This document shows, piece after piece, positions 1-38,682 of a DNA stretch of 64,000 nt. The number at the start of each line of letters is the position of its first letter. Position 1 is the stretch's first letter. The stretch comes from Escherichia phage SP15. Made by a program: the position numbers and the translations under genes. The stretch lies in the sequence record AP019559. One strand, 5' to 3'. The notes below the pieces were generated by a model that worked only from the letters and a program-made list of their open reading frames with translations, did no database searches and was not told where the DNA came from.

Positions 1-64
1 AGGAATCGAACCTACCTCTTTCTAGCTTATGAGACTAGCGATCTCTACCAGAGATCTAACCCGC
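1..64 (-). tRNA. partial tRNA, anticodon CAU (Met or Ile-lysidine type); 3' acceptor strand cut by window edge
   Basis: Reverse complement gives GCGGGUU acceptor 5' strand, anticodon stem CUAGU/GCUAG with loop CUCAUAA, T-loop UUCGAUU; truncated at position 1. Confidence 0.5.
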
Positions 65-71
65 AATTGTT

Positions 72-354: not shown

Positions 355-564
355 TTTGCTTTCCTTCTCTTCACTTTATAAAATATATTATACAGAGAAT
401 TAAGTAAAATAGCAAATGAATTTTTAATAAATTTACTTATTGTGTAGGCCACCTGGAGGCTATGAACCCCACGGCTGACAAAGAAGTTTGCGAGACTTCT
501 CTTAAAAGCCAGAATAGACCCGCCGATCTATCGGAACCTACATAATAAGTAAACTTTATAGTGT

Positions 565-685
565 CATTCTAGACAGGACTCGAACCTGTTATCACTTGTG
601 CGGACTTACGAGAACCATTCTTTCACTCGAATCGAACGAGCTTCTGCCCTAGCCAAGCTGGTTTCCCCATCAACCACGCTAGAAT
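565..685 (-). ncRNA. atypical tRNA-like RNA, about 121 nt, with two T-arm-like hairpins
   Basis: Perfect 7-bp terminal helix AUUCUAG/CUAGAAU, 3' T-arm ACAGG-UUCGAGU-CCUGU, internal hairpin GCUCG-UUCGAUU-CGAGU; too long for a canonical tRNA, no clean anticodon arm, no encoded CCA. Confidence 0.35.
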
Positions 686-1452: not shown

Positions 1453-1554
1453 GCTTGTTTCCTCAGTTATTAATGAAAATGGTATCTGTGGCTGAATTCG
1501 ATGTCAGCAATGATAGCTGGTTGGCTACCGGTTTACTTAACTCTACACAGAATT

Positions 1555-3725: not shown

Positions 3726-3803
3726 CTATTTAATTTGGTGGCTCCCCGAGGATTCGAACCTACGTACCTTCCGGTTATGAGCCGGGTGCTCATACCATAT
3801 GAG
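3726..3803 (-). tRNA. tRNA with anticodon CAU (Met/Ile type), weak T-stem
   Basis: Acceptor GGUUCUC/GGGAGCC, D-arm GCUC-AUAUGGUAU-GAGC, anticodon loop CUCAUAA, T-loop UUCGAAU but T-stem only 3 clean bp, CCA. Confidence 0.5.
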
Positions 3804-3809
3804 CTTGAG

Positions 3810-3898
3810 AACCAGAATTTGGCGGAAGAAGCGGGAATCGAACCCACAAGGCTATATTTCAAACCGACAGATTAGCAATCTGCTGCAATACCGTTATG
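3810..3898 (-). tRNA. tRNA-Ser (anticodon GCU), type II
   Basis: Acceptor GGAAGAA/UUCUUCC, anticodon stem GCAGA/UCUGU, loop UUGCUAA, long variable arm, T-loop UUCGAUU, CCA. Confidence 0.7.
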
Positions 3899-7515: not shown

Positions 7516-8029
7516 GTTTAAATATTTTTAAGAACTCTCGTAAAAACTCTTAAAAATACAGACGATACCGGGAGAGTCATAAGTCTCACTCATTAAGTAT
7601 TTCAAGACAAAATACAGTAACGTCTATTATTTTCCAGTTTAAGTCAGGGTGACTTAGTGGTTAGGTCCTGCGGTATATTGAGGACTCGGTTAGGCTTGGG
7701 GTCATGACTTCCCGCCTTTTGCTGCTACTCAACAGGAGTTATCGCGAATTACCTGTGCTATTGTGCACCATTAGTGACATCTCTCATGTCAGCATTTCCC
7801 ACTTTGTGGATAGCTTGAAAAACTACTCCGATATGGAGAAAAAACTTCACTATCCTAGAATACCTTCTAAAGTTCTTCTTTAGCCTGGACATAGTTAAAT
7901 CGTAATAAAACTATTCAGCAGACTGGTTGGTTAGCCTGGAACCAACTACCGCGTGGTTTAGGCAGTGCGCAACTAACCTCGGAAGCTTTTACGTTAAAAG
8001 CATCAGTTATCCAGTTCTTACCGACCGTA

Positions 8030-8100
8030 GGATTCGAACCTATATCTTCCACCAGTTACGGCTTGATAATACCAATTATACTAGGACGGCAGTGTTACTA
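8030..8100 (-). ncRNA. tRNA-like small RNA (acceptor and T-arm present, D and anticodon arms not canonical)
   Basis: Terminal helix GCCGUCC/GGUCGGU (one mismatch), T-arm AUAGG-UUCGAAU-CCUAC, no encoded CCA, about 71 nt. Confidence 0.35.
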
Positions 8101-30125: not shown

Positions 30126-30830
30126 ATGGCTGGTTCTCGCAGAAAGAAACATATCCATGAAATCCCGGATGAAGTCTTTAAAAAAGTTATAGAGCACCTG
30201 GAGAACGGTGGTACTAAGAAAGCAGCATGTGAAATGCTCGGCGTATCATCCAATCCAACTATGGAAAGGATGATAGAAGAGTGGCAAGACCGGCAGATCC
30301 AAGTTGCCGAGATGAAGAAAAAGAAACGCGGTACACTCATTGAAGGCATTGAGTTGGCCAACGTTATTGAACAGTATCTATCTGGTGATTCCTTTGAGGA
30401 GATTGCCGATCGTAATTATCGTTCTGTAGCAATGGTTAAATCTGTTCTGGAACGCTATGGTGCTCTGCTTCGTTTGAACGATATTGTAGATCCATTGAAC
30501 CCACCAATTATTCCTGATGATGCTGTAGCAGAAGAATTTGAGGTAGGTGAGCTTGTTTGGGTTCCTGGATACCAGTGTATCGGTGAAATCAAAAAAGCAA
30601 TGGATAACCCTGTCGGTTGTTACCGTGTATGGCTTCTATCAGAAGGCAAACAACAGAACGTTCATTATATGAATTACGAGCTGGCTTCTGTTAAACATCT
30701 GGAAAAGTTAGGGGTTGATGTAAAGTCTCTGGGGTACAAATGGTCCCGGGAAGAAGTTATCACACTGATTAACGAAGCTGTTAAGGCTGCCCTGAAACTT
30801 GATAAAGAAAAAGGTAAACGTCGTGAGTAG
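30126..30830 (+). CDS. putative DNA-binding (HTH) early protein downstream of P_N25-like promoter
   Basis: 234 aa; strong promoter and GAGAGGAG RBS upstream. Confidence 0.6.
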   Translation: MAGSRRKKHIHEIPDEVFKKVIEHLENGGTKKAACEMLGVSSNPTMERMIEEWQDRQIQVAEMKKKKRGTLIEGIELANVIEQYLSGDSFEEIADRNYRSVAMVKSVLERYGALLRLNDIVDPLNPPIIPDDAVAEEFEVGELVWVPGYQCIGEIKKAMDNPVGCYRVWLLSEGKQQNVHYMNYELASVKHLEKLGVDVKSLGYKWSREEVITLINEAVKAALKLDKEKGKRRE

Positions 30831-31074
30831 ACTAACTGATTTACTTAAAGATGGGGAAGTAAAAACGCTATATCGTAGAAGCTGGGATAACGATAATAAC
30901 GGCTTAGTGTTACTAACTTTAGATGCTGACTCGGATGTAGCTACTCAGCATACCTGGGTAGCCGGTAACTATCCATATAGCGAGGTTGTTTCATTAACAG
31001 TATGCGAAGCTATTGCGGACGATTGGGAGGTTGCCAGCATTGATGATATGCTCGCTGTTGGCCTGGTGGAGTAA
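30799..31074 (+). CDS. hypothetical protein
   Basis: Start uncertain; GTG at 30823 follows an AAGGTA SD-like sequence. Confidence 0.4.
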   Translation: MIKKKVNVVSRLTDLLKDGEVKTLYRRSWDNDNNGLVLLTLDADSDVATQHTWVAGNYPYSEVVSLTVCEAIADDWEVASIDDMLAVGLVE

Positions 31075-31091
31075 CTACTTAAAAATTTCAG

Positions 31092-31120
31092 TTGCTTAAT
31101 CCTATAATTCTTGATATAAT
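31092..31120 (+). promoter_or_regulatory. T5-type early promoter
   Basis: TTGCTT-17 nt-TATAAT. Confidence 0.55.
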
Positions 31121-31177
31121 ATTCTCATAGTTTGAAAGAACTATTCTGTTTAATTCTTAATTAAGGAAATATAAAAT

Positions 31178-31588
31178 ATGACTACTCCAACTCAGTGGAC
31201 TGATGAACTGTTTGAAAAAATGTCTTCCGAATATGTTGCTCGTATGGAGCAATTCCCAGAGGATGAACGTCCGGGTGTTAGCATGGAAATTGTTAGCGAA
31301 ATTGCCCAGGAAAATGGTGTAACTCCGAACGGTTTTCGTATGAAGCTGACTAAAGCAGGTTTGTATATCAAGAAAGCTGCTGGTTCTACTTCGAAATCTA
31401 GCGCATCTACTGGAGAAAAAGCTTCCGGTGGTTCTCGTACCTCCAAAGCTCAAGCCCATGCCGACCTTCGTTCAGCTTTCTCTGATGCTGGCTTAGCACC
31501 AGATTTTCTGGATGATGCAATTATCGACAAACTGACCGGTAAAGCGGCTGCTCATCTGGCAGAAGCAATCCGAGCTATCACTAAGTAA
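31178..31588 (+). CDS. hypothetical protein
   Basis: 136-aa ORF, AAGGAAA RBS. Confidence 0.55.
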   Translation: MTTPTQWTDELFEKMSSEYVARMEQFPEDERPGVSMEIVSEIAQENGVTPNGFRMKLTKAGLYIKKAAGSTSKSSASTGEKASGGSRTSKAQAHADLRSAFSDAGLAPDFLDDAIIDKLTGKAAAHLAEAIRAITK

Positions 31589-31625
31589 TATTTAGATAAA
31601 TCCACCAACAAAAGGAACTATAGCT

Positions 31626-31922
31626 ATGACTAAAGCTGAAATTATTGCACAGTGCGAAAAATTTGGTGAGTTTTATCTTCATTACGAGAAACTTCGTCAG
31701 AAAGGAACCACGTACCTTCAGGGTACAATGGAATTTGATCCAGCCCAAGATAAATATCTGGCTGAGCGTATTAAACGTGAACGTATTCGTAAAGCGAAAG
31801 ATGATGAAATCCTTGTCTTCTCTCGTACTAATGATAGCTTCCGTTTTATTCCTGTCGAGAAAGTTCGTCGTGTGACTAGCCTCCAATCAGAGTTAGATCG
31901 TGCTTCTCCAGTAGGCCGATAA
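31626..31922 (+). CDS. hypothetical protein
   Basis: 98-aa ORF followed by hairpin terminator. Confidence 0.55.
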   Translation: MTKAEIIAQCEKFGEFYLHYEKLRQKGTTYLQGTMEFDPAQDKYLAERIKRERIRKAKDDEILVFSRTNDSFRFIPVEKVRRVTSLQSELDRASPVGR

Positions 31923-31924
31923 GA

Positions 31925-31952
31925 AAACAATTAGCCCCTATATGGGGCTTTT
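31925..31952 (+). terminator. rho-independent terminator
   Basis: AGCCCCTATATGGGGCT hairpin then TTTTTGTG. Confidence 0.6.
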
Positions 31953-31972
31953 TGTGTATTTGGGATATGTAA

Positions 31973-32281
31973 ATGAGCGAACAGGTAAATCAAAACTATG
32001 AAGGACACGTTGATGACCAGTCCATCATACTTTGGGAGAAGGAGGGGGAACAAGTAAGATTAACAGTATCTGAATTTCGTGGGAATCTATACATGGGTAT
32101 TCGTTACTGGCTTCTTGATATTAATGATGAATGGTTTCCAACGAAATCTGGCTTCTCTTTTCCTTACACCCTAGAAACAACATCACAGCTTTTCTATGCG
32201 TTTACACAGATTCTTAGCGAATCTGAGGTTTTACATGAAGTACAGAAACGAGCTGAAGAACTCAAAGCCAAGAATGCCTAG
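31973..32281 (+). CDS. PC4-like ssDNA-binding protein
   Basis: VRLTVSEFRGNLYMGIRYW...PTKSGFSF resembles the PC4/YdbC fold signature. Confidence 0.45.
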   Translation: MSEQVNQNYEGHVDDQSIILWEKEGEQVRLTVSEFRGNLYMGIRYWLLDINDEWFPTKSGFSFPYTLETTSQLFYAFTQILSESEVLHEVQKRAEELKAKNA

Positions 32282-32308
32282 TTCTTGGCTTTTTCTTTAT
32301 AAATGTAT

Positions 32309-32337
32309 TTGCTTTCAACTCAGTTTTGTTATATAAT
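32309..32337 (+). promoter_or_regulatory. T5-type early promoter
   Basis: TTGCTT-17 nt-TATAAT, conserved leader. Confidence 0.55.
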
Positions 32338-32367
32338 ATTTATATAAATTAATGAGAGGATTGCAAA

Positions 32368-32640
32368 GTGAAAAAGATAAATATAAGTACACTTAAACCT
32401 TTTCCATATATCGGACAGCCTCTCATCCTCATGTGGGAGGAAAAGATTAATGGGGAAAAGTATACTAAAACTAGAATTGGGTATAAACTGATTTCACTTT
32501 ATTACGAAAAAGAAGTATTAATAGCTGAAATATACTCTCCATTATCGGATAGGCTAGTAAAAACTACATATTTGCATCTTTGCAAAAATTATACGTGGCA
32601 CGGATCTACCAGACAACCCACGTACTATGAGGCAGAATAA
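32368..32640 (+). CDS. hypothetical protein
   Basis: 90-aa ORF, GTG start. Confidence 0.45.
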   Translation: MKKINISTLKPFPYIGQPLILMWEEKINGEKYTKTRIGYKLISLYYEKEVLIAEIYSPLSDRLVKTTYLHLCKNYTWHGSTRQPTYYEAE

Positions 32641-33612
32641 ATGACTAATGTAAAAGAATTTATTAAACGCTGTCAAGAAGCATATTATCGGGGTATGTCT
32701 TTAATCTCTGATGAGGAGTATGATTGCCTGGTAAAACGCTTCCCGTTAGAAGAAGAGATCGGGCCTAAGGGTGATATTCCACATCTGTACCGTATGTATT
32801 CTTTACAGAAAGTTTATTATAATCGTGGGGATAAACCACCATTTAATCCTTTAGGTCAGGTAGAAACTGATAAGTTAGATGGTTGTGCAATTTCTCTGCT
32901 ATATATTAACGGCGAATTTGTTCAAGCACTAACTCGTGGTAATGGTATTCTAGGGAATGATGTCACAAGCAACGTAAGACTGCTGAATATCCCTAAAAAG
33001 ATTTCCCAAAAAGTACCAACTCAAATCACTGGTGAAGTTCTAATTACAAAAGAAGTAGAAAATAAACGTAACTTTGCCTCTGGTGCTATTAACCTCAAAG
33101 ATAGTGATGATTTCGTACAACGTATCGGGGAAGGTGGTTTAATCTTCGTTGCATACGGTATCCAGTGTTCTGCCGAATCTGTAGGTATTACAGAAGCATA
33201 CTTAAAAGATATGCTTTGGCTAGAGAATGAGAACTTCTTAACAGTTGTTAATGTGCGTTCCTTCTTTAAATGGATTCCGACGGACGGTAAAGTTGTTCGT
33301 ATTAATGACAACAACAAATTCTTCCGAGAAGGCTGGACTAATAAATTCCCTCGCGGGGCGTTCGCTATTAAAGAGGATGAAGAAGGCGAGATTACAACTC
33401 TTACTAAAGTTGAATGGCAGGTAGGGGCTTCTGGTAAAGTAACTCCAGTTGGTTATTTCGAACCGGTAATTATTGATGATGCTACAATTGTTAAAGCGAC
33501 TCTTAATAACGTTGATTATATTAACTCTCTCGATCTAGAGATCGGTTGCCAGATTCGAGTGATTCGTGCTGGTGGTGTAATCCCGTGCATAGTAGAGCGA
33601 GTATACGATTAA
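32641..33612 (+). CDS. NAD-dependent DNA ligase, adenylation/OB-fold part (split ligase subunit A)
   Basis: Adenylation motif TDKLDG (KxDG), RGDG-like and OB-fold blocks. Confidence 0.75.
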   Translation: MTNVKEFIKRCQEAYYRGMSLISDEEYDCLVKRFPLEEEIGPKGDIPHLYRMYSLQKVYYNRGDKPPFNPLGQVETDKLDGCAISLLYINGEFVQALTRGNGILGNDVTSNVRLLNIPKKISQKVPTQITGEVLITKEVENKRNFASGAINLKDSDDFVQRIGEGGLIFVAYGIQCSAESVGITEAYLKDMLWLENENFLTVVNVRSFFKWIPTDGKVVRINDNNKFFREGWTNKFPRGAFAIKEDEEGEITTLTKVEWQVGASGKVTPVGYFEPVIIDDATIVKATLNNVDYINSLDLEIGCQIRVIRAGGVIPCIVERVYD

Positions 33613-33755
33613 CTAACAACCCTTTGCTACCCATCTACCATATCGGAATTATAAAGTGGTTATTGACATTTTCGCCGCTTAGGTATATACTATTATCATT
33701 CAGTTGAGGGATAGAAAGTTATGGCGAGGGTAAGCAAAGTTAGTTAAAATTGTAG

Positions 33756-33784
33756 TTGCTAAATGCTTAAATACTTGCTATAAT
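33756..33784 (+). promoter_or_regulatory. T5-type early promoter for ligase subunit B
   Basis: TTGCTA-17 nt-TATAAT. Confidence 0.55.
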
Positions 33785-33814
33785 ATTTATATAAATTGAT
33801 AAGGAAGAAATTTG

Positions 33815-34594
33815 ATGAAAATCGAAATTCCAACACAATGTCCCTCTTGTGGTTCTAAGCTCGATCTTGTCAACGGACAATTATTCTGTCGTAATAAGTC
33901 CAACTGTCCAGCACAATCAAGTAAGTTAATTGAGAACTTCTGTACAAAAATGAAGTTAAAGGGTTTTGGCCCAAAAACTATTGAGAAGCTGGAGCTGACG
34001 AAGATTTCAGAACTATTTTACCTAACCGAAGAAGATTTGGTTAGAGCCGTGGGTAGCAAGGTTGCCGCTAAGTTAATTAGCGAATTAAATACTAAAGTTC
34101 GCGGAGACATTGACTTTGGTTCAGTTCTCGGTTCTTTAGGAATCCCTCTAATTGGAGAGGTTGCAGCAAAGAAATTATCCCAAAATTGCACTAGCTTCCA
34201 CGATGTGAAGGCTGACGGCAAGGCTGGAGAAAACTATAAAGCCTGGCTAAATTCCACACAAGGCAAGGATGTTATCGAATTACCGTGGAAATTCACAACT
34301 GGTATTAAAGGTGCTAAAGCCGAGGTCATCATTACTGATGGTCTAGTAGCCCAACCAAATGGAATAACGGTATGTATTACCGGATCTTTGCAAGATTTTG
34401 CAAATAGAACGGATGCAACAAACTATCTAGAAGGTCTAGGGTATACTGTTAAAAAATCAGTTACCAAAGACGTTAAATACCTAATCTGTGAGGATGAATC
34501 TAAGCGTTCTTCCTCATCTTATAAGAAAGCCGAAACGAATGGGATAGAAATCCTGTCGATTAAAGAACTATTGGAGAAAAATAATAATGTCTAA
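33815..34594 (+). CDS. NAD-dependent DNA ligase, Zn-finger/HhH/BRCT part (split ligase subunit B)
   Basis: CPSCGSKL...CRNKSNCPAQ Zn-finger, HhH-like GIPLIGEV, C-terminal BRCT-like region; ATG 33815. Confidence 0.7.
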   Translation: MKIEIPTQCPSCGSKLDLVNGQLFCRNKSNCPAQSSKLIENFCTKMKLKGFGPKTIEKLELTKISELFYLTEEDLVRAVGSKVAAKLISELNTKVRGDIDFGSVLGSLGIPLIGEVAAKKLSQNCTSFHDVKADGKAGENYKAWLNSTQGKDVIELPWKFTTGIKGAKAEVIITDGLVAQPNGITVCITGSLQDFANRTDATNYLEGLGYTVKKSVTKDVKYLICEDESKRSSSSYKKAETNGIEILSIKELLEKNNNV

Positions 34595-35354
34595 ACTGAA
34601 CTGGAACGTAGAGGGTGTAACCGAGTCTCTGAAAGCAAAAGCCACTGCTCTGGGTGTTGATGTAATCTCTCAAGAACAAGTAGCTGCTATCGCTGCTGAA
34701 CTGGCTGCTGAAACTGGCAAAGACGTTACCGCTCGCTCTGTTGGCTCTAAGCTGCGTAAAGAAGGTTTCGAAGTACAGAAAGCTAACGAAGTACAGAAAT
34801 CCCCGTGGACTCCTGAGCAGGAAGCTGAACTGGTTGATTTCCTGAACGCTCATGCTGGTCAGTATACTTATGCTGAAATCGCTGCTGCTGTAGCTGGTGG
34901 TCAGTTCGGTGCTAAACAGGTACAGGGTAAGATCCTGAGTCTGGAAATGACCGCTTCTGTTAAACCAACTGAAAAAGCTGCTGCTGTTCGTTCCTTCACC
35001 CCTGATGAAGAAACTGATTTTGTTAACCAGGTTGTTGCTGGTGCTACTATTGAAGCTATCGCTGCTCACTTCGGTCGCAATATTAAGCAGATCCGTGGTA
35101 AAGCTCTGAGTCTGCTTCGTGAAGGTCGTATCGCCGCTATGCCGGTACAGGAAACTTCAAGTGCTAAAACTCGTGAAGATCTGTTAGAAGGTCTGGATCT
35201 GGCTAACATGACCGTTGCTGAGATTGCTGAGAAAACTGGTAAGTCTGAGCGTGGTGTTAAATCTATGCTGTCTCGTCGTGGTCTGGTTGCTAAGGACTAT
35301 GATGGTGCCGCTAAGCGTGCTAAACTGGATGCAAAAGCTGCGGCTGCTGAATAA
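34587..35354 (+). CDS. putative DNA-binding protein with three tandem HTH-like repeats; highly expressed codon usage
   Basis: Repeats TYAEIAAAVAG, TIEAIAAHFGRNIKQIRGKALSL, TVAEIAEKTGKSERGVKSMLSRRGL; strong CTG/CGT/GCT/GGT bias. Confidence 0.55.
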   Translation: MSKLNWNVEGVTESLKAKATALGVDVISQEQVAAIAAELAAETGKDVTARSVGSKLRKEGFEVQKANEVQKSPWTPEQEAELVDFLNAHAGQYTYAEIAAAVAGGQFGAKQVQGKILSLEMTASVKPTEKAAAVRSFTPDEETDFVNQVVAGATIEAIAAHFGRNIKQIRGKALSLLREGRIAAMPVQETSSAKTREDLLEGLDLANMTVAEIAEKTGKSERGVKSMLSRRGLVAKDYDGAAKRAKLDAKAAAAE

Positions 35355-35372
35355 TCTGGTAAATTAAACCTA

Positions 35373-35403
35373 AGGGGAGGGGGCTATGCTCCTTCCCCTT
35401 TTT
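35373..35403 (+). terminator. rho-independent terminator after the HTH-repeat protein gene
   Basis: 8-bp stem GGGGAGGG/CCTTCCCC then TTTTT. Confidence 0.6.
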
Positions 35404-35436
35404 GCATTTAGAAGGCACGAAAGCGTGCAAAGGAGA

Positions 35437-36909
35437 ATGACCTTGTTTAACGTGCAAGCTGTAGTGTTGAAGATGCTTCTAGCTTCCGAACAGAAGCAAA
35501 TAGCATTGGAAACATTCTCAAAACTGCATAAAGATCATTTTAATGACGCTTTCTCCTCAATTTACCAAGCCGTCCAGAATTATTATAAAAAATATAACAC
35601 AATGCCGTCCATTGACGCACTGATGCTTGAGGCTAATAGGAACGCCCGCCTTTCTCAAGCTCTAGTCGTTTTAGCTAACACTCAAATTCCAGAAGTTAGC
35701 ATGGAACAGGCACTTGAAGTCCTAGAAGCCGAGTATACACAGGATTTATTCCTGAAGCTTCTAGAAACAGACGTGCTTCAAGATTTAACAATGCTGGATC
35801 AGGGAGAAATTCTTAACCGAGTTGCCTCCCTTCACTTAAAATTAGAAGAGAAAGTAACGAATACTGGAAAAGTATTCAACGCAGATAACATGCGTATTTT
35901 CCAGAGAGAAGAAGATACCAAACTGAACTTAATCGCTCTTGGTATCTGTAATGAGTTCGACGCTCAAATTGGTTTAGCTCGCACAGAAACGTTACTGCTT
36001 GGTGGTTGGCGTGGTACTGGTAAATCCATTATCTGTTCAAACATACAGGTTCAGCAATATTTGAATGGGGATATTGCTCCATACTTCTCAATTGAGATGA
36101 AAGAACATGAAGTATTTAGACGTAATCTAGCCATGTTAGCTGGTGTATCCGCACTAGCAATGCGTAATAATACTCTAGAAGGCGCAGCTCTGTTGAGATT
36201 AGCCAGAACTAGAGCTAGGATGTTTAATGGTGGTGAAGAGCTTTTCGATAACTTCGTTAAACAGTACACAATGGCTAAGATGAGTGATTTCTACGATATG
36301 GAAAGTAAGCTAATAGAAGGGTATGAACTACATACTCCTATGATTATTGTTTATGATCCTGAGCTGTCTATTACAACAGTTGACGTAGAATTAAATAAAT
36401 TAGTTGCTAGATATGGGGATAAAGTTACAGTAGCTTTACTGGACTATATTAACCAAACCCGACTTCCAGATTCTAAAACCATTGATATGTATGACTGGAA
36501 AGAACAGATGGTTGTTAGCTCGTCTTTCAAATCTATCTGCCAGAAACATAACGTGGCTGGCGTAGCTCCTTACCAGATCGATCAAGATGGTAGAACACGT
36601 ATGTCAAAAGGGATTCTTGATTCCGCAGACATGGCTGCTAATCTTAATGCTGCAAAAGCTGATAATGGTCAAGGTGCTATTATGTTTGACTTCGTTAAGA
36701 CTCGTTCTTCTGATAGCGTGAAGTTTATGCCTAAAATGAACTGGGAAACCCTGCGGATGGATAATACTACCAACCTAGCAATGGAAGATATATCTCAAAT
36801 GGAAGCTGAGTTCGTTATCCCTATTGAGAAGGATAAGCCGGCTCAATCTAAACGTGCTAAGAAAGACAAAGCTGAAAATTCAACAGGTGAACAGGCCAGC
36901 GATATATGA
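35437..36909 (+). CDS. DnaB-like replicative helicase
   Basis: RecA-fold Walker A GGWRGTGKS and Walker B-like block; start uncertain (ATG 35437 or TTG 35443) because the track start lies in the upstream terminator hairpin. Confidence 0.65.
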   Translation: MTLFNVQAVVLKMLLASEQKQIALETFSKLHKDHFNDAFSSIYQAVQNYYKKYNTMPSIDALMLEANRNARLSQALVVLANTQIPEVSMEQALEVLEAEYTQDLFLKLLETDVLQDLTMLDQGEILNRVASLHLKLEEKVTNTGKVFNADNMRIFQREEDTKLNLIALGICNEFDAQIGLARTETLLLGGWRGTGKSIICSNIQVQQYLNGDIAPYFSIEMKEHEVFRRNLAMLAGVSALAMRNNTLEGAALLRLARTRARMFNGGEELFDNFVKQYTMAKMSDFYDMESKLIEGYELHTPMIIVYDPELSITTVDVELNKLVARYGDKVTVALLDYINQTRLPDSKTIDMYDWKEQMVVSSSFKSICQKHNVAGVAPYQIDQDGRTRMSKGILDSADMAANLNAAKADNGQGAIMFDFVKTRSSDSVKFMPKMNWETLRMDNTTNLAMEDISQMEAEFVIPIEKDKPAQSKRAKKDKAENSTGEQASDI

Positions 36910-37439
36910 TAACACAGGAAAGGCTAAAAGAGTTATTTGATTACTCCCCAGAAACTGGGGAGTTTACTAGAAAAGTATCTAGAGGTAATCAGAAAGCTGG
37001 TAGTATAATAACCAGAAAAGACTCTAACGGTTATATAATTATTGGTATAGATGGCAAGGGTTACAAAGCCCATCGGATGGCTTTTCTATTTATGGAAAAT
37101 ACATTGCCGGAAAAAGTAGACCATGTAAACAGAATACCTTTTGATAATAGGTGGTGTAATCTAAGAGACGCCACAGCTCAGGAAAATAGTAGAAATAAAA
37201 CCGCATGTAGTAAGTCTGGATATTTGGGAGTTGCTTGGGATATCGAAAAACAAAGATGGAGAGTTCAAGTAAGAGACTCTAATAGCACTCTTAAAAATGG
37301 TGGCAGATTTAAGTATGAAGAGCTAGAGCTAGCTGTAAATTCAGCAAATATATTAAGGACTAAGTTACATGGAGAACGTGCTGTTATAGAAATTTTTGAT
37401 ACATCCAATTATCCTTCACTGGAGGAGTTAAATTCATGA
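36906..37439 (+). CDS. HNH homing endonuclease (HNH_3 plus AP2-like domain)
   Basis: YKAHRMAFLFMENTLPEKVDHVNRIPFDNRWCNLR; paralogous to 26062..26514. Confidence 0.65.
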   Translation: MITQERLKELFDYSPETGEFTRKVSRGNQKAGSIITRKDSNGYIIIGIDGKGYKAHRMAFLFMENTLPEKVDHVNRIPFDNRWCNLRDATAQENSRNKTACSKSGYLGVAWDIEKQRWRVQVRDSNSTLKNGGRFKYEELELAVNSANILRTKLHGERAVIEIFDTSNYPSLEELNS

Positions 37440-38326
37440 GTCGAATAACAGAATTACTTGATCTTAAGGGAATTGAGTATAAAGATACTGGTGGAGATAT
37501 TTTAATCTGTTGTCTCAATCCAGATCATGACGATAAACACCCAAGTTTGCGTATTGACCCTGAAACAGGTATTATGCACTGCTTGAGTTGTGGCTTCGGT
37601 AAAGGTATACCGAGCATTTACCATTATTTTAATGAGACTCAGTACCGACAGTCCCCAAGGCTATCACAAGTACGTAAAAAGATTTCAGAGATTAGGAATG
37701 GATCAACGAATCTTGCAATTCCTGAATCTGCTTACCTTTTTGAAGGTGATTTCCGAGGTATAAGTTCTAAGACCTTGAAGAAATATTTTGCTTTCCAACA
37801 CCAAGCAGACTGGGAAGGCAGAATCGTATTCCCAATCACAGATGCTGTTGGACGCAATATCCTATTTTTGGGTCGTTCTATAAACAGTTCTGCCCCTCCT
37901 AAATACTTAGTAAAACCAAAACAAGTTTCACCGCCAATTTTTCCTGTACGATATAATACTCCAGTTCTTATTCTAGTTGAAGGCATCTTTGATATGCTGA
38001 ACCTAGAGGATAATGGTATAGACTACGCTTCTTGCTGCTTTGGTACACATCAGTTTACTTCGGATAACATTGCAGATAAGTTCAGTCCTTATATTATTGC
38101 CGGTGTAAAAGTTGTTGTTATCTTACTAGATAATGATGCTTCTGGTAATAAAGCTGCACAAGCATTGGCCAAGCTAATTCGTACAAAAACGCGTTTAACA
38201 CCTGTAGTTGCTAACTTTCTTCTGCCTGAAGGTAAAGACCCGGGTGACTTAAATAAAGAAGAGATTGATATGTTAGCAAAACGTATTGAAATTTTAGTTG
38301 CTGAATCGCTTAAAGATTTGGTATAA
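37436..38326 (+). CDS. DNA primase (Zn-ribbon plus Toprim)
   Basis: CCLNPDHDDKHPSL...CLSCGFGKG Zn-binding; Toprim LILVEGIFDML...LLDNDASGNKAA. Confidence 0.8.
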   Translation: MSRITELLDLKGIEYKDTGGDILICCLNPDHDDKHPSLRIDPETGIMHCLSCGFGKGIPSIYHYFNETQYRQSPRLSQVRKKISEIRNGSTNLAIPESAYLFEGDFRGISSKTLKKYFAFQHQADWEGRIVFPITDAVGRNILFLGRSINSSAPPKYLVKPKQVSPPIFPVRYNTPVLILVEGIFDMLNLEDNGIDYASCCFGTHQFTSDNIADKFSPYIIAGVKVVVILLDNDASGNKAAQALAKLIRTKTRLTPVVANFLLPEGKDPGDLNKEEIDMLAKRIEILVAESLKDLV

Positions 38327-38352
38327 TAGTCCTAAATAACTGAGGAGCTACT

Positions 38353-38682
38353 ATGGAATATGTATATATTTACGAGGATGTTCCAGTATACGATAGTATA
38401 ACACACGAAGAGGTTAAACTAGAGCTGTTTACAGTACTAGAGTCCCTTAATAAACGGAAGGATTTTCATTTATTTGGTGATCCTAAATTACCTGCATCTT
38501 ATATTTTCTTTAAAGTAAAAGATACAGGTCAAGAGGTGTATCTAACTTATGATTGGGCTGTTGTAGAAAATACTGAGCAATCTATGAAAGTGTTAGGTGC
38601 TTTTCTGCGTATAGTTGAAGAATTTCAGGCACTAGAAAAGCAGCGCAATGAAATGCGTAAATTACTACATACCTATAAATAG
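38353..38682 (+). CDS. hypothetical protein
   Basis: 109-aa ORF. Confidence 0.5.
   Translation: MEYVYIYEDVPVYDSITHEEVKLELFTVLESLNKRKDFHLFGDPKLPASYIFFKVKDTGQEVYLTYDWAVVENTEQSMKVLGAFLRIVEEFQALEKQRNEMRKLLHTYK

What the first reader, a model, noticed from the sequence alone, without database searches (positions are those of the whole stretch)
565..685. 121-nt tRNA-like RNA with two T-arm-like hairpins and a perfect 7-bp terminal helix
On the minus strand a perfect terminal helix AUUCUAG/CUAGAAU encloses a canonical T-arm (ACAGG-UUCGAGU-CCUGU) plus a second T-arm-like hairpin (GCUCG-UUCGAUU-CGAGU). It is far too long for a tRNA and I could not fold a standard anticodon arm. It could be a tRNA with an insertion or intron, a fused or permuted tRNA pair, or a stable tRNA-like RNA such as the species RNAs known from T4-type tRNA clusters.
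Basis: seen in the sequence. Interest (0 to 1): 0.5.

Follow-up and report, generated by a model that had tools for sequence, protein, structure and literature searches.

The report
Phage T5 "RNA2": tRNA-scaffolded stable RNA
This is the already-annotated phage T5 "RNA2", a tRNA-shaped RNA whose anticodon loop is replaced by a highly conserved 55-nt structured module; it belongs to a large phage-only family whose function is still unknown.

Summary
Window 565-685(-) holds a 121-nt RNA with a perfect 7-bp terminal helix, a D-arm, a canonical T-arm and a second T-arm-like hairpin, but no anticodon loop.

It is not new as an object. The window is a T5-like phage, and the T5 and Salmonella phage 5 GenBank records annotate this locus as rna2/RNA2, "tRNA-like stable RNA with unknown functions".

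What I add is the family picture:
- Pattern scans and a covariance model found 127 copies (79 distinct, 51 lineages) in phage and metagenome contigs, and only one hit in 185,579 cellular genomes.
- All five helices covary strongly.
- The scaffold is a real tRNA: ARAGORN accepts 38 of 45 once the module is replaced by a 7-nt loop.
- The payload module is nearly invariant. It folds as an irregular extension of the anticodon stem capped by a T-loop hairpin.

There is no anticodon, no conserved discriminator base and almost never an encoded CCA, although neighbouring tRNAs usually have one. It is not an intron, not a permuted or fused tRNA pair, and not homologous to T4 rnaC/rnaD. A T5 mutant whose deletion spans it is viable.

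Most likely it is a non-decoding RNA that uses a tRNA body for processing and stability and displays a conserved module to an unknown partner.

The parts
565..685 (-). Whole RNA (n1-n121; window coordinate = 686 - n). GenBank's rna2 feature corresponds to about 562-686.
   Evidence: Covariance model R1 hit 565-685(-), 78.7 bits, E = 1.8e-17. Annotated as rna2 in AJ604531, AY692264 and AY543070.
679..685 (-). Terminal (acceptor-like) helix, 5' strand AUUCUAG (n1-7)
   Evidence: Pairs 7/7 with 566-572. All 7 pairs show compensatory changes in relatives, 91.7% of cells paired.
566..572 (-). Terminal helix, 3' strand CUAGAAU (n114-120). Position 565 is the discriminator G. It is followed by ACA, not CCA.
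   Evidence: Only 3 of 51 lineages encode CCA.
659..676 (-). D-arm UGGUU-GAUGGGGA-AACCA (n10-27), with GG in the loop
   Evidence: The 4 scored pairs all covary, 95.2% paired. Many relatives have a textbook D-arm, UA-GCUC-AGUUGGUA-GAGC.
654..658 (-). Connecting (anticodon-equivalent) stem, 5' strand GCUUG (n28-32)
   Evidence: Pairs with 594-598. 5 of 5 pairs covary, 99.4% paired. Shuffled control gives 5/5 in 7% of trials against 26 of 27 observed.
594..598 (-). Connecting stem, 3' strand CAAGU (n88-92)
599..653 (-). Conserved payload module (n33-87) replacing the anticodon loop
   Evidence: Near-invariant across 64 distinct modules. Replacing it with a 7-nt loop restores tRNA detection in 38 of 45 scaffolds.
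644..649 (-). GGGYWG box (GGGCAG, n37-42), 5' strand of the irregular helices Py and Px
   Evidence: G1/G2/G6 present in 58 of 58, G3 in 55 of 58; this box was not required by the first two scan patterns. G1-c10: GC 57, AU 5, GU 2. Y4-c5: UA 29, UU 21, CG 14. G6-c0: GC 64 of 64.
625..641 (-). Inner T-arm-like hairpin T2, GCUCG-UUCGAUU-CGAGU (n45-61)
   Evidence: 4 of 5 stem pairs covary, 93.1% paired. Loop UUCGAUU is conserved in the blastn-found relatives, which were not pattern-selected.
611..624 (-). J2 strand GAAAGAAUGGUUCU (n62-75): A-rich, with conserved UGG (615-617). Its last nucleotide U75 (position 611) pairs with A43.
   Evidence: GG present in 63 of 64 modules. The post1-J2(last) pair is formed in 57 of 64 with 5 pair types; shuffle mean 27.4, 0 of 2000.
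599..610 (-). CGUAAGUCCGCA box (n76-87), 3' strand of Px and Py, with GUAA looped out
   Evidence: Exact in 44 of 52 family hits found with a pattern that did not require it, and within one change in 4 more. Covariation.
590..593 (-). Variable region GAUA (n93-96)
   Evidence: Segmentation. Relatives often have the tRNA-like AGGUC or AGAC here.
573..589 (-). Canonical T-arm ACAGG-UUCGAGU-CCUGU (n97-113)
   Evidence: 3 of 5 pairs covary and 2 are invariant G-C, 95.6% paired. Rfam's tRNA model aligns this arm.

Best explanation
This is the T5-type RNA2 gene. It encodes a non-decoding stable RNA that uses a genuine tRNA body (acceptor helix, D-arm, T-arm) as a processing and stability scaffold.

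In place of the 7-nt anticodon loop it carries a conserved module of about 55 nt. The module is an irregular continuation of the anticodon stem. A GGGY strand pairs with N(U)CC(G)C (helix Py), GUAA is looped out, a short helix (Px) follows, and a T-loop hairpin caps the arm, with an A-rich, UGG-bearing strand at its base.

Shown here: identity with the annotated RNA2, the architecture, covariation of all helices, the tRNA nature of the scaffold, the absence of an anticodon and of a CCA end, restriction to phages, and residence in or beside tRNA clusters.

Inferred:
- It is transcribed within the polycistronic tRNA/small-ORF transcript and cut out by the host tRNA-maturation enzymes (RNase P at the 5' end, 3' trimming). 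This is the principle that engineered 'tRNA scaffold' RNAs exploit.
- The invariant module, not the interchangeable scaffold, is the functional part. It acts in trans by binding a partner conserved across very different hosts, most plausibly a component of tRNA or translation metabolism. The RNA would then be a tRNA mimic or decoy rather than an adaptor.

The partner is unknown. My confidence is about 0.9 for the identity and architecture and about 0.35 for the trans-acting mimic or decoy mechanism; the figure given is a blend of the two.
For: Identity: 99.8% to phage FFH1 over 501 bp. The locus is annotated rna2 / 'tRNA-like (stable) RNA with unknown functions' in AJ604531, AY692264 and AY543070, with the same neighbours (ORF upstream, RNA IV and promoter P13a downstream).

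Selection on the element: in distant phages (Pectobacterium My1, Klebsiella Sugarlandvirus, Pantoea AAS21, Acinetobacter T4-likes) only the element is retained and the flanks are not.

Family: 127 instances, 79 distinct, 51 lineages in IMG/VR and metagenomes, against 1 hit in 185,579 species genomes. Members score 37-82 bits, ordinary tRNAs 32 bits or less, with one copy per locus.

Structure:
- 94.8% of cells paired against 53.9% shuffled; covariation score 0.91 against 0.19; slid registers 0.20 or less; 23 of 26 pairs compensatory.
- The strand-selection bias was measured and is small.
- Module pairs G6-c0 (64/64), post1-J2last (57/64, 0 of 2000 shuffles), Y4-c5 and G1-c10 (0 of 500 shuffles).

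Scaffold is a tRNA: ARAGORN of 45 scaffolds once the module is replaced by a loop and 0 of 45 when it is intact. R1 also picks up true tRNAs weakly.

Not decoding or charging: no U33/anticodon. CCA is encoded in 3 of 51 lineages against 251 of 318 neighbouring tRNAs. The discriminator is A19/U14/C11/G7.

Context: 22 of 24 divergent loci have tRNA genes nearby, mostly on the same strand. In Acj133 the element exactly fills the gap between two tRNAs. There is no terminator and no strong promoter between it and the upstream tRNAs.

No conserved protein neighbour: the maximum is 6 of 51 lineages, and those are homing endonucleases.
Against: - No expression, end-mapping or binding data were available to me. 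'Stable RNA' rests on a GenBank note.
- The partner and the phenotype are unknown.
- T5Mos, whose deletion 30661-38625 spans rna2 at 32959-33083, still forms plaques on E. coli (PMC11464382), so any function is conditional.
- My wider family set was collected with patterns that required the two T-loops. Conservation of those loops in that set is partly by construction, and more divergent members are under-sampled (addresses only the CGUAA box).
- The Acinetobacter-type copies lack a convincing terminal helix and D-arm, so the full tRNA scaffold is not universal.
- The single-sequence fold is not unusually stable.
Confidence: 0.6

Rival explanations
1. A functional tRNA gene interrupted by an intron or insertion that is removed to give a decoding tRNA.
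For: The scaffold passes a tRNA finder when the insert is removed. ARAGORN intron mode of 45 family members. The 3' end of the module, N-U-C-C-G-C-A, superficially resembles an anticodon loop.
Against: - The intron-mode calls disagree on anticodon (Arg-CCG x12, Pro-AGG x4, Trp, SeC, Phe, Ile, Gly, Val) and on intron position, and they derive from the invariant module boxes. The window copy is not called at all.
- The look-alike loop has a pyrimidine at the position-37 equivalent, and its residues covary as base pairs with the GGGY strand.
- 55 nt is far below group I intron size, and there is no Rfam intron hit.
- By inspection there is no bulge-helix-bulge motif, and bacteria lack the enzyme that cuts such motifs (established knowledge).
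- The insert is the most conserved part, which is the opposite of what is expected for an intron. CCA is almost never encoded.
Confidence: 0.03
2. A decaying tRNA pseudogene, or a selfish insertion into tRNA genes, with no function of its own.
For: Dispensable in T5Mos (PMC11464382). Homing endonuclease genes recur nearby. The scaffolds are very diverse while the insert is constant, which repeated insertion of a mobile module could also produce. A few copies have degenerate terminal helices.
Against: - Compensatory substitutions maintain all five helices across 51 lineages. The module keeps near-invariant boxes and internal covariation. That is purifying selection on an RNA fold, not decay.
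- It is retained at the same syntenic position in 483 phage records while the flanks diverge.
- There is one copy per locus, with no flanking repeats or target duplications noticed and no associated mobility gene in 45 of 51 lineages.
Confidence: 0.05
3. A purely cis-acting processing signal: a tRNA-like 'punctuation mark' that directs RNase P to cut the polycistronic transcript and so separates or stabilises neighbouring mRNAs. The released RNA would be a by-product.
For: It lies between small ORFs inside a tRNA/ORF operon, with no promoter or terminator of its own. The tRNA scaffold is what RNase P needs.
Against: A punctuation role needs only the acceptor/T domain. It does not explain a 55-nt module conserved almost to the nucleotide from enterobacterial T5-likes to Acinetobacter T4-likes and to jumbo-phage contigs. 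In many loci the element is flanked by tRNAs, which already provide cleavage sites.
Confidence: 0.08
4. Not an RNA gene: the conservation reflects a small protein-coding ORF (for example 606-758 on the minus strand, or 598-816 on the plus strand). Some GenBank records place a 'hypothetical protein' over it.
For: ORFs of 50 and 72 aa overlap the element. Some records annotate a CDS there.
Against: The ORFs are not conserved outside close relatives. Variation consists of compensatory base-pair changes and of indels that are not multiples of three in linkers. The expert T5 annotations call it an RNA.
Confidence: 0.01

Closest known systems
Bacteriophage T5 / BF23 / Salmonella phage 5 'RNA2' (GenBank misc_RNA rna2; AY543070 32959-33083, AY692264 32962-33086, AJ604531 5936-6060)
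   Same: It is the same gene. Identity is 97.7% to phage 5, and many other T5-like records are 100% identical. It has the same position between the ORF that follows tRNA-Asp and RNA IV/promoter P13a, and the same length class of 121-125 nt.
   Different: Nothing material. The annotated feature includes one extra 5' nucleotide and the 3' ACA. The records give no structure, family or function.
Canonical tRNA (Rfam RF00005)
   Same: 7-bp acceptor helix, D-arm with GG, short variable region, and a T-arm with GGUUCGA loop. The scaffold is accepted as a tRNA when the module is replaced by a loop.
   Different: No anticodon loop, U33 or anticodon. About 55 nt sit in its place. It scores below Rfam's cut-off (18 bits against 29) and ARAGORN does not call it. 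CCA is not encoded even though the neighbouring tRNAs encode it.
T4 stable RNAs species 1 and 2 (rnaC, rnaD)
   Same: Stable non-tRNA RNAs of unknown function encoded at the end of a phage tRNA cluster.
   Different: No detectable homology. They do not align and are not hit by the family model. T4-like Acinetobacter phages do carry true members of the present family, but E. coli T4 does not.
Engineered 'tRNA scaffold' RNAs, in which a recombinant RNA is inserted in place of the anticodon loop so that cells process and stabilise it (from my own knowledge: Ponchon & Dardel 2007)
   Same: The same design: a tRNA body with a structured payload grafted onto the anticodon stem. Here the scaffold helices drift freely while the payload is conserved.
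   Different: That is a laboratory method, not a natural family. That the phage RNA is processed and stabilised in the same way is an inference and was not tested here.
tmRNA and bacterial Y-RNA-like YrlA (other tRNA-mimicking non-coding RNAs)
   Same: They use a T-arm/acceptor-type tRNA mimic joined to a non-tRNA domain.
   Different: No tag reading frame and no tmRNA call by ARAGORN. No Rfam hit to tmRNA, Y RNA or YrlA families at E up to 10. The ends lie in the acceptor helix, as in a normal tRNA.

Membership tests
T5-type RNA2 (annotated misc_RNA rna2) | Sequence identity to the annotated feature | tested here: met
   97.7% to AJ604531 rna2, and many T5-like records are 100% identical. R1 hits T5 AY692264 at the annotated place, L066 5966-6086.
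T5-type RNA2 (annotated misc_RNA rna2) | Synteny: downstream of tRNA-Asp and an ORF, upstream of RNA IV and promoter P13a | tested here: met
   Window: tRNA-Asp 1181-1257, ORF 808-1155, element 565-685, RNA IV about 443-545, promoter-like site 415-387. The order is the same.
T5-type RNA2 (annotated misc_RNA rna2) | Accumulates as a stable RNA in infected cells | not testable with these tools
   Only the GenBank note 'tRNA-like stable RNA'. No expression data were accessible.
Canonical tRNA | Acceptor helix, D-arm and T-arm in cloverleaf order | tested here: met
Canonical tRNA | 7-nt anticodon loop with U33 and an anticodon | tested here: not met
   55 nt lie between the stem strands. There is no conserved U33, and the look-alike residues are paired.
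Canonical tRNA | Detected by tRNA models (Rfam gathering score, ARAGORN) | tested here: not met
   (18 bits, below 29). 0 of 45 family members are called when intact.
Canonical tRNA | CCA 3' end and aminoacylation | tested here: inconclusive
   CCA is not encoded here (G-ACA) and is encoded in only 3 of 51 lineages, against 79% of neighbouring tRNAs. Post-transcriptional CCA addition and charging cannot be tested here.
Intron-containing tRNA (group I or bulge-helix-bulge type) | Removing the insert regenerates a consistent anticodon loop | tested here: not met
   ARAGORN intron mode gives inconsistent anticodons and positions and makes no call for the window copy.
Intron-containing tRNA (group I or bulge-helix-bulge type) | Group I core or bulge-helix-bulge motif | tested here: not met
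   No Rfam intron family at E up to 10. The insert is only 55 nt. The internal loop has both strands at the same level rather than staggered 3-nt bulges (by inspection).
Permuted or fused tRNA pair | 3' half precedes 5' half, or two complete cloverleaves | tested here: not met
   The arm order is normal. The second T-like hairpin has no acceptor or D-arm of its own and caps the extended anticodon arm.
T4 species 1/2 RNAs (rnaC/rnaD) | Sequence or structure homology to rnaC/rnaD | tested here: not met
   No convincing alignment. R1 gives no hit at L009 2909-3172.
tmRNA | tRNA-like domain plus a tag-peptide reading frame | tested here: not met
   ARAGORN's tmRNA search is negative. There is no Rfam tmRNA hit on the element.

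The most novel reading that the evidence does not exclude
The conserved module is a dedicated effector displayed on a tRNA body. It could be an aptamer-like or T-loop-based docking domain that captures a universally conserved host factor that reads tRNAs. Candidates are a tRNA-processing or tRNA-modifying enzyme, a ribosome or translation-factor site, or a tRNA-directed immune nuclease. The phage RNA would then reprogramme tRNA metabolism or blunt tRNA-targeting defence.

Other tRNA-cluster RNAs with different inserts (T5 RNA1, L006:284-415, L100:2978-3116) would then be further examples of a general phage strategy of 'tRNA-scaffolded effector RNAs'.
Probability: 0.25. Interest if true: 0.8.

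Novelty: already known. Interest (0 to 1): 0.45.

Why it matters
T5's tRNA region has recently turned out to hold counter-defence functions, with T5 tRNA-Lys acting against PARIS and tRNA-Tyr against the Eco7 retron (PMC11464382). Its non-tRNA RNAs, however, have stayed unexplained since they were annotated.

This work shows that RNA2 is not a T5 oddity. It is a phage-restricted family with 51 lineages, found from T5-likes to T4-like and jumbo-phage contigs, with an almost invariant payload on an interchangeable tRNA body. That turns a forgotten annotation into a testable problem: a defined, covariation-supported structure, clear mutational targets (the GGGYWG and CGUAA..CC..A boxes, T2, UGG), and a natural precedent for tRNA-scaffolded RNAs.

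It would also fill a gap in Rfam and stop annotation pipelines from placing spurious ORFs over the locus.

Tried and rejected
- **Single-sequence folding.** z = -0.47 and the MFE mispairs the module, so it was not informative.
- **MAFFT plus RNAalifold on raw sequences.** It recovered only the two T-arms because the variable helices do not align by sequence. I replaced it with motif-anchored segmentation and an N-padded alignment.
- **Homology to T4 rnaC/rnaD.** Rejected.
- **Second-elbow idea.** I considered that the UGG of J2 docks on the T2 loop as a D-loop does. In many members only one unpaired nucleotide separates GG from helix Px, which is too short to reach the T2 loop, so I did not adopt it.
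- **UGG-capped mini-hairpin in J2.** Its stem-length distribution is no better than shuffled. It was dropped in favour of Px anchored on G6-c0.
- **A Px register taken from the T5 group (AGAA/UUCU).** It does not transfer to other lineages.
- **Anticodon-loop or codon-anticodon mimic reading of NUCCGCA.** Rejected because those residues covary as pairs with the GGGY strand.
- **Conserved protein partner next to the RNA.** None found; only homing endonucleases recur.
- **Literature searches.** They found no functional study of RNA2 or of this family. The AcrIIIA1 and SegB/Septu papers concern host tRNAs or true tRNAs only. Glukhov et al. 2018 is not held.

Full report
**1. The observation**

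Read on the minus strand, window 685-565 is:

AUUCUAG CG UGGUU-GAUGGGGA-AACCA GCUUG GCUAGGGCAGAA GCUCG-UUCGAUU-CGAGU GAAAGAAUGGUUCU CGUAAGUCCGCA CAAGU GAUA ACAGG-UUCGAGU-CCUGU CUAGAAU G

ARAGORN finds 11 tRNAs in the window and Rfam finds 12, all on the minus strand in the first 8 kb, but neither calls this element. Rfam run on the element alone gives only an 18-bit partial tRNA match against a 29-bit cut-off. The single-sequence fold is not unusually stable (z = -0.47), so the case for a real RNA has to come from comparison.

**2. What it is**

The window is a T5-like phage (Tequintavirus), 99.8% identical to phage FFH1 over 501 bp. 483 phage records hold the element. Three expert-annotated records mark this exact locus as a misc_RNA:
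- AJ604531, Salmonella phage 5: "rna2, tRNA-like RNA with unknown functions".
- AY692264, T5 st0: "rna2".
- AY543070, T5: "RNA2, tRNA-like stable RNA with unknown functions", 32959-33083.

Gene order is the same as in the window: tRNA-Asp, an ORF, RNA2, RNA IV, promoter P13a. The object is therefore already known and annotated. Its structure, family and function are not described in anything I could find.

**3. A large phage-only family**

In progressively more distant phages, blastn retains only the element and loses the flanks. These include Pectobacterium My1, Klebsiella Sugarlandvirus, Pantoea AAS21 and the T4-like Acinetobacter phages 133 and Henu6.

Pattern scans built on the conserved core gave the following:

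| Collection | Result |
|---|---|
| IMG/VR | 55 loci, from contigs of 9 to 363 kb |
| Metagenomes (lake, marine, soil, sediment, gut) | 65 loci |
| 185,579 bacterial and archaeal species genomes | 1 hit, on a 167-kb contig of an unnamed MAG |

Altogether there are 127 instances, 79 distinct sequences and 51 lineages at 85% similarity or less.

A covariance model built from 32 representatives separates members (37-82 bits) from ordinary tRNAs (32 bits or less). It finds exactly one member per locus and one in the window, with boundaries 565-685.

In 22 of 24 divergent loci the element sits among or beside tRNA genes, mostly on the same strand. In Acj133 it exactly fills the gap between tRNA-Gly and tRNA-Cys.

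No protein family recurs next to it in more than 6 of 51 lineages, and that family is homing endonucleases (NUMOD3, GIY-YIG), which are mobile passengers of tRNA clusters.

**4. Structure**

MAFFT plus RNAalifold recovered only the two T-arms. I therefore segmented every sequence on the conserved motifs and wrote a structure-registered, N-padded alignment. Results on 32 lineage representatives for the five-helix model:

| Measure | Observed | Control |
|---|---|---|
| Cells forming a standard pair | 94.8% | 53.9% in shuffles (0 of 500 as high) |
| Covariation score | 0.91 | 0.19 in shuffles; 0.20 or less in slid registers |
| Pairs with changes on both sides | 23 of 26 | |

I chose the 5' strands of three helices by best complementarity, so I measured that bias:

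| Helix | Shuffled upstream sequence | Observed |
|---|---|---|
| Connecting stem, 5/5 paired | 7% of trials | 26 of 27 lineages |
| Terminal helix, 7/7 paired | 2.4% of trials | 14 of 27 lineages |
| Terminal helix, at least 6/7 paired | 26% of trials | 24 of 27 lineages |

Outside the T5 group the scaffold often reads like a textbook tRNA (UA-GCUC-AGUUGGUA-GAGC, variable loop AGGUC). When the module is replaced in silico by a 7-nt loop, ARAGORN accepts 38 of 45 scaffolds as tRNAs, including the window's. With the module intact it accepts none.

**5. The module**

The roughly 55 nt between the strands of the anticodon-equivalent stem are almost invariant:

nCnR-GGGYWG-n(1-3) [T2 hairpin, loop UUCGAUU] A-rich...UGG-n(2-7) CGUAA-N-U-CC-G-C-A

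My patterns required both T-loops and the CGUAA box, so I rescanned with the CGUAA box left free. 44 of 52 plausible family hits have it exactly and 4 more differ by one change. The GGGYWG box and the UGG were never required in the first scans.

Motif-anchored covariation analysis resolved most of the module's pairing:
- The invariant G6 pairs with the invariant C that opens CGUAA (64 of 64).
- The next pair outward is formed in 57 of 64, with five pair types. The shuffle mean is 27.4 and 0 of 2000 shuffles reach it.
- Y4 pairs with the N after CGUAA: U-A 29, U.U 21, C-G 14, never C-A, C-U or U-G.
- G1 pairs with the C before the final A: G-C 57, A-U 5, G.U 2. Both of these last two associations were reached by 0 of 500 shuffles.

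The module is therefore an irregular continuation of the anticodon stem. It consists of helix Py (GGGY with N(U)CC(G)C), a looped-out GUAA, the short helix Px, and the T2 hairpin on top, with a 10-25-nt A-rich, UGG-bearing strand bulging at the base of T2.

In window numbering the pairs are G37-C86, C40-G81, G42-C76 and A43-U75, with T2 at 45-61.

Some members insert an extra small hairpin with a GAAA tetraloop into the bulged strand (L106, L119). The Acinetobacter-type copies keep the module, the connecting stem and the outer T-arm, but they lack a convincing terminal helix and D-arm.

**6. What it is not**

- **Not a decoding tRNA.** There is no U33 or anticodon. The discriminator base is not conserved (A19/U14/C11/G7). 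CCA is encoded in 3 of 51 lineages, against 251 of 318 tRNAs in the same loci. In the representative T5-like locus all 16 tRNAs encode CCA while the RNA ends G-ACA.
- **Not an intron-bearing tRNA.** ARAGORN's intron mode produces mutually contradictory anticodons read from the module's own conserved boxes and does not call the window copy. The insert is the most conserved part. It is far too small for a group I intron and has no Rfam hit. The residues that look like an anticodon loop (N-U-C-C-G-C-A) are paired.
- **Not a permuted or fused pair.** The arm order is normal.
- **Not a tmRNA**.
- **Not homologous to T4 rnaC/rnaD**.
- **Not a protein-coding region.** The overlapping ORFs are not conserved, and the variation is compensatory.

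**7. How it most likely works**

*Shown:* a tRNA body whose helices drift by compensatory change, carrying a payload under very strong purifying selection, located in tRNA operons of phages only.

*Inferred:*
- The nearest strong promoter match lies downstream (415 to 387, TTGCTA-17-TATAAT) and there is no terminator between the element and the upstream tRNAs. The RNA must therefore be excised from a polycistronic tRNA/small-ORF transcript.
- The tRNA body is what RNase P and the 3'-trimming enzymes recognise. This is the principle exploited by engineered tRNA-scaffold RNAs (my own knowledge).
- The module is conserved across phages of very different hosts, and no protein gene is co-conserved next to it. 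This suggests that it binds something conserved in bacteria, or that it has an intrinsic activity. A tRNA mimic or decoy acting on tRNA or translation metabolism, or on tRNA-directed immunity, is the most economical guess. I have no direct evidence for any particular partner.
- Any function is conditional. T5Mos carries a deletion of 30661-38625, which spans rna2 (32959-33083), and it still forms plaques on E. coli lacking PARIS (PMC11464382).

**8. Verdict**

The finding is real and correctly described. As an object it is already known (T5 RNA2).

The new content here is the family, its restriction to phages, the covariation-supported structure of scaffold and module, and the evidence against decoding or charging. 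Interest is moderate: an old, unexplained RNA that now looks clearly functional and experimentally tractable.

Noticed in passing
window 443-545 (-): A strongly structured 103-nt stretch (MFE -37.4 kcal/mol; ends UGUAGG.../...CCUACA) about 20 nt downstream of RNA2. It corresponds to 'RNA IV, stable RNA with unknown functions' in the T5 and phage 5 records.
   Followed up: partly
window 1482-1554 (-): A 73-nt stretch directly 3' of tRNA-Asn, corresponding to the annotated 'RNA3, putative tRNA-like RNA'. It has an acceptor-like helix UCUGUG/CACAGA and a T-like hairpin GCUGA-CAUCGAAU-UCAGC. Neither ARAGORN nor Rfam calls it.
   Followed up: partly
window 8018-8091 (-): A 74-nt degenerate tRNA-like sequence with a D-arm-like hairpin and a UAGG-UUCGAAU-CCUA T-arm. 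The R1 model picks it up at 21.6 bits, but ARAGORN and Rfam do not call it. It lies where AJ604531 annotates the long 'RNAX' upstream of tRNA-Arg(TCT).
   Followed up: partly
window 3739-3813 (-): Rfam calls a tRNA here (40.3 bits) that ARAGORN misses. Relatives annotate a CAT-anticodon tRNA (Met or Ile2) at this place.
   Followed up: no
window 1-65 (-): A tRNA cut off by the window edge (Rfam 28.9 bits, truncated at the 3' end). By synteny it is the initiator tRNA-fMet.
   Followed up: no
L066:3505-3648(-) (T5 RNA1); L006:284-415; L100:2978-3116; L057:1502-1640; L011:8967-9094: Other phage tRNA-cluster RNAs of 128-144 nt are also tRNA scaffolds, but with unrelated insertions. The insert is in the anticodon arm in most and in the D-loop in L100. 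This suggests that tRNA bodies with grafted domains are a recurrent phage design.
   Followed up: partly
L107:5111-5225; L123:4759-4884; L133, L134, L137, L139: These look like divergent relatives of the RNA2 module: a GGGUAG-like box, an inner T-hairpin and an A-rich UGG strand, but a different 3' box. In L123 a second, D-arm-less copy lies in the same contig as a true member. The family is probably wider than my patterns could sample.
   Followed up: partly
loci L011, L044, L045, L052, L102 (within about 2.5 kb of the element): HNH/NUMOD3 and GIY-YIG homing endonuclease genes recur beside the RNA in several unrelated lineages, as is usual for phage tRNA clusters.
   Followed up: yes
L014:5451-5523; L052:12400-12474; L065:7053-7127: ARAGORN labels CTA-anticodon tRNAs as 'tRNA-Pyl' in three loci that carry the RNA. 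These are probably amber-suppressor-type phage tRNAs.
   Followed up: no
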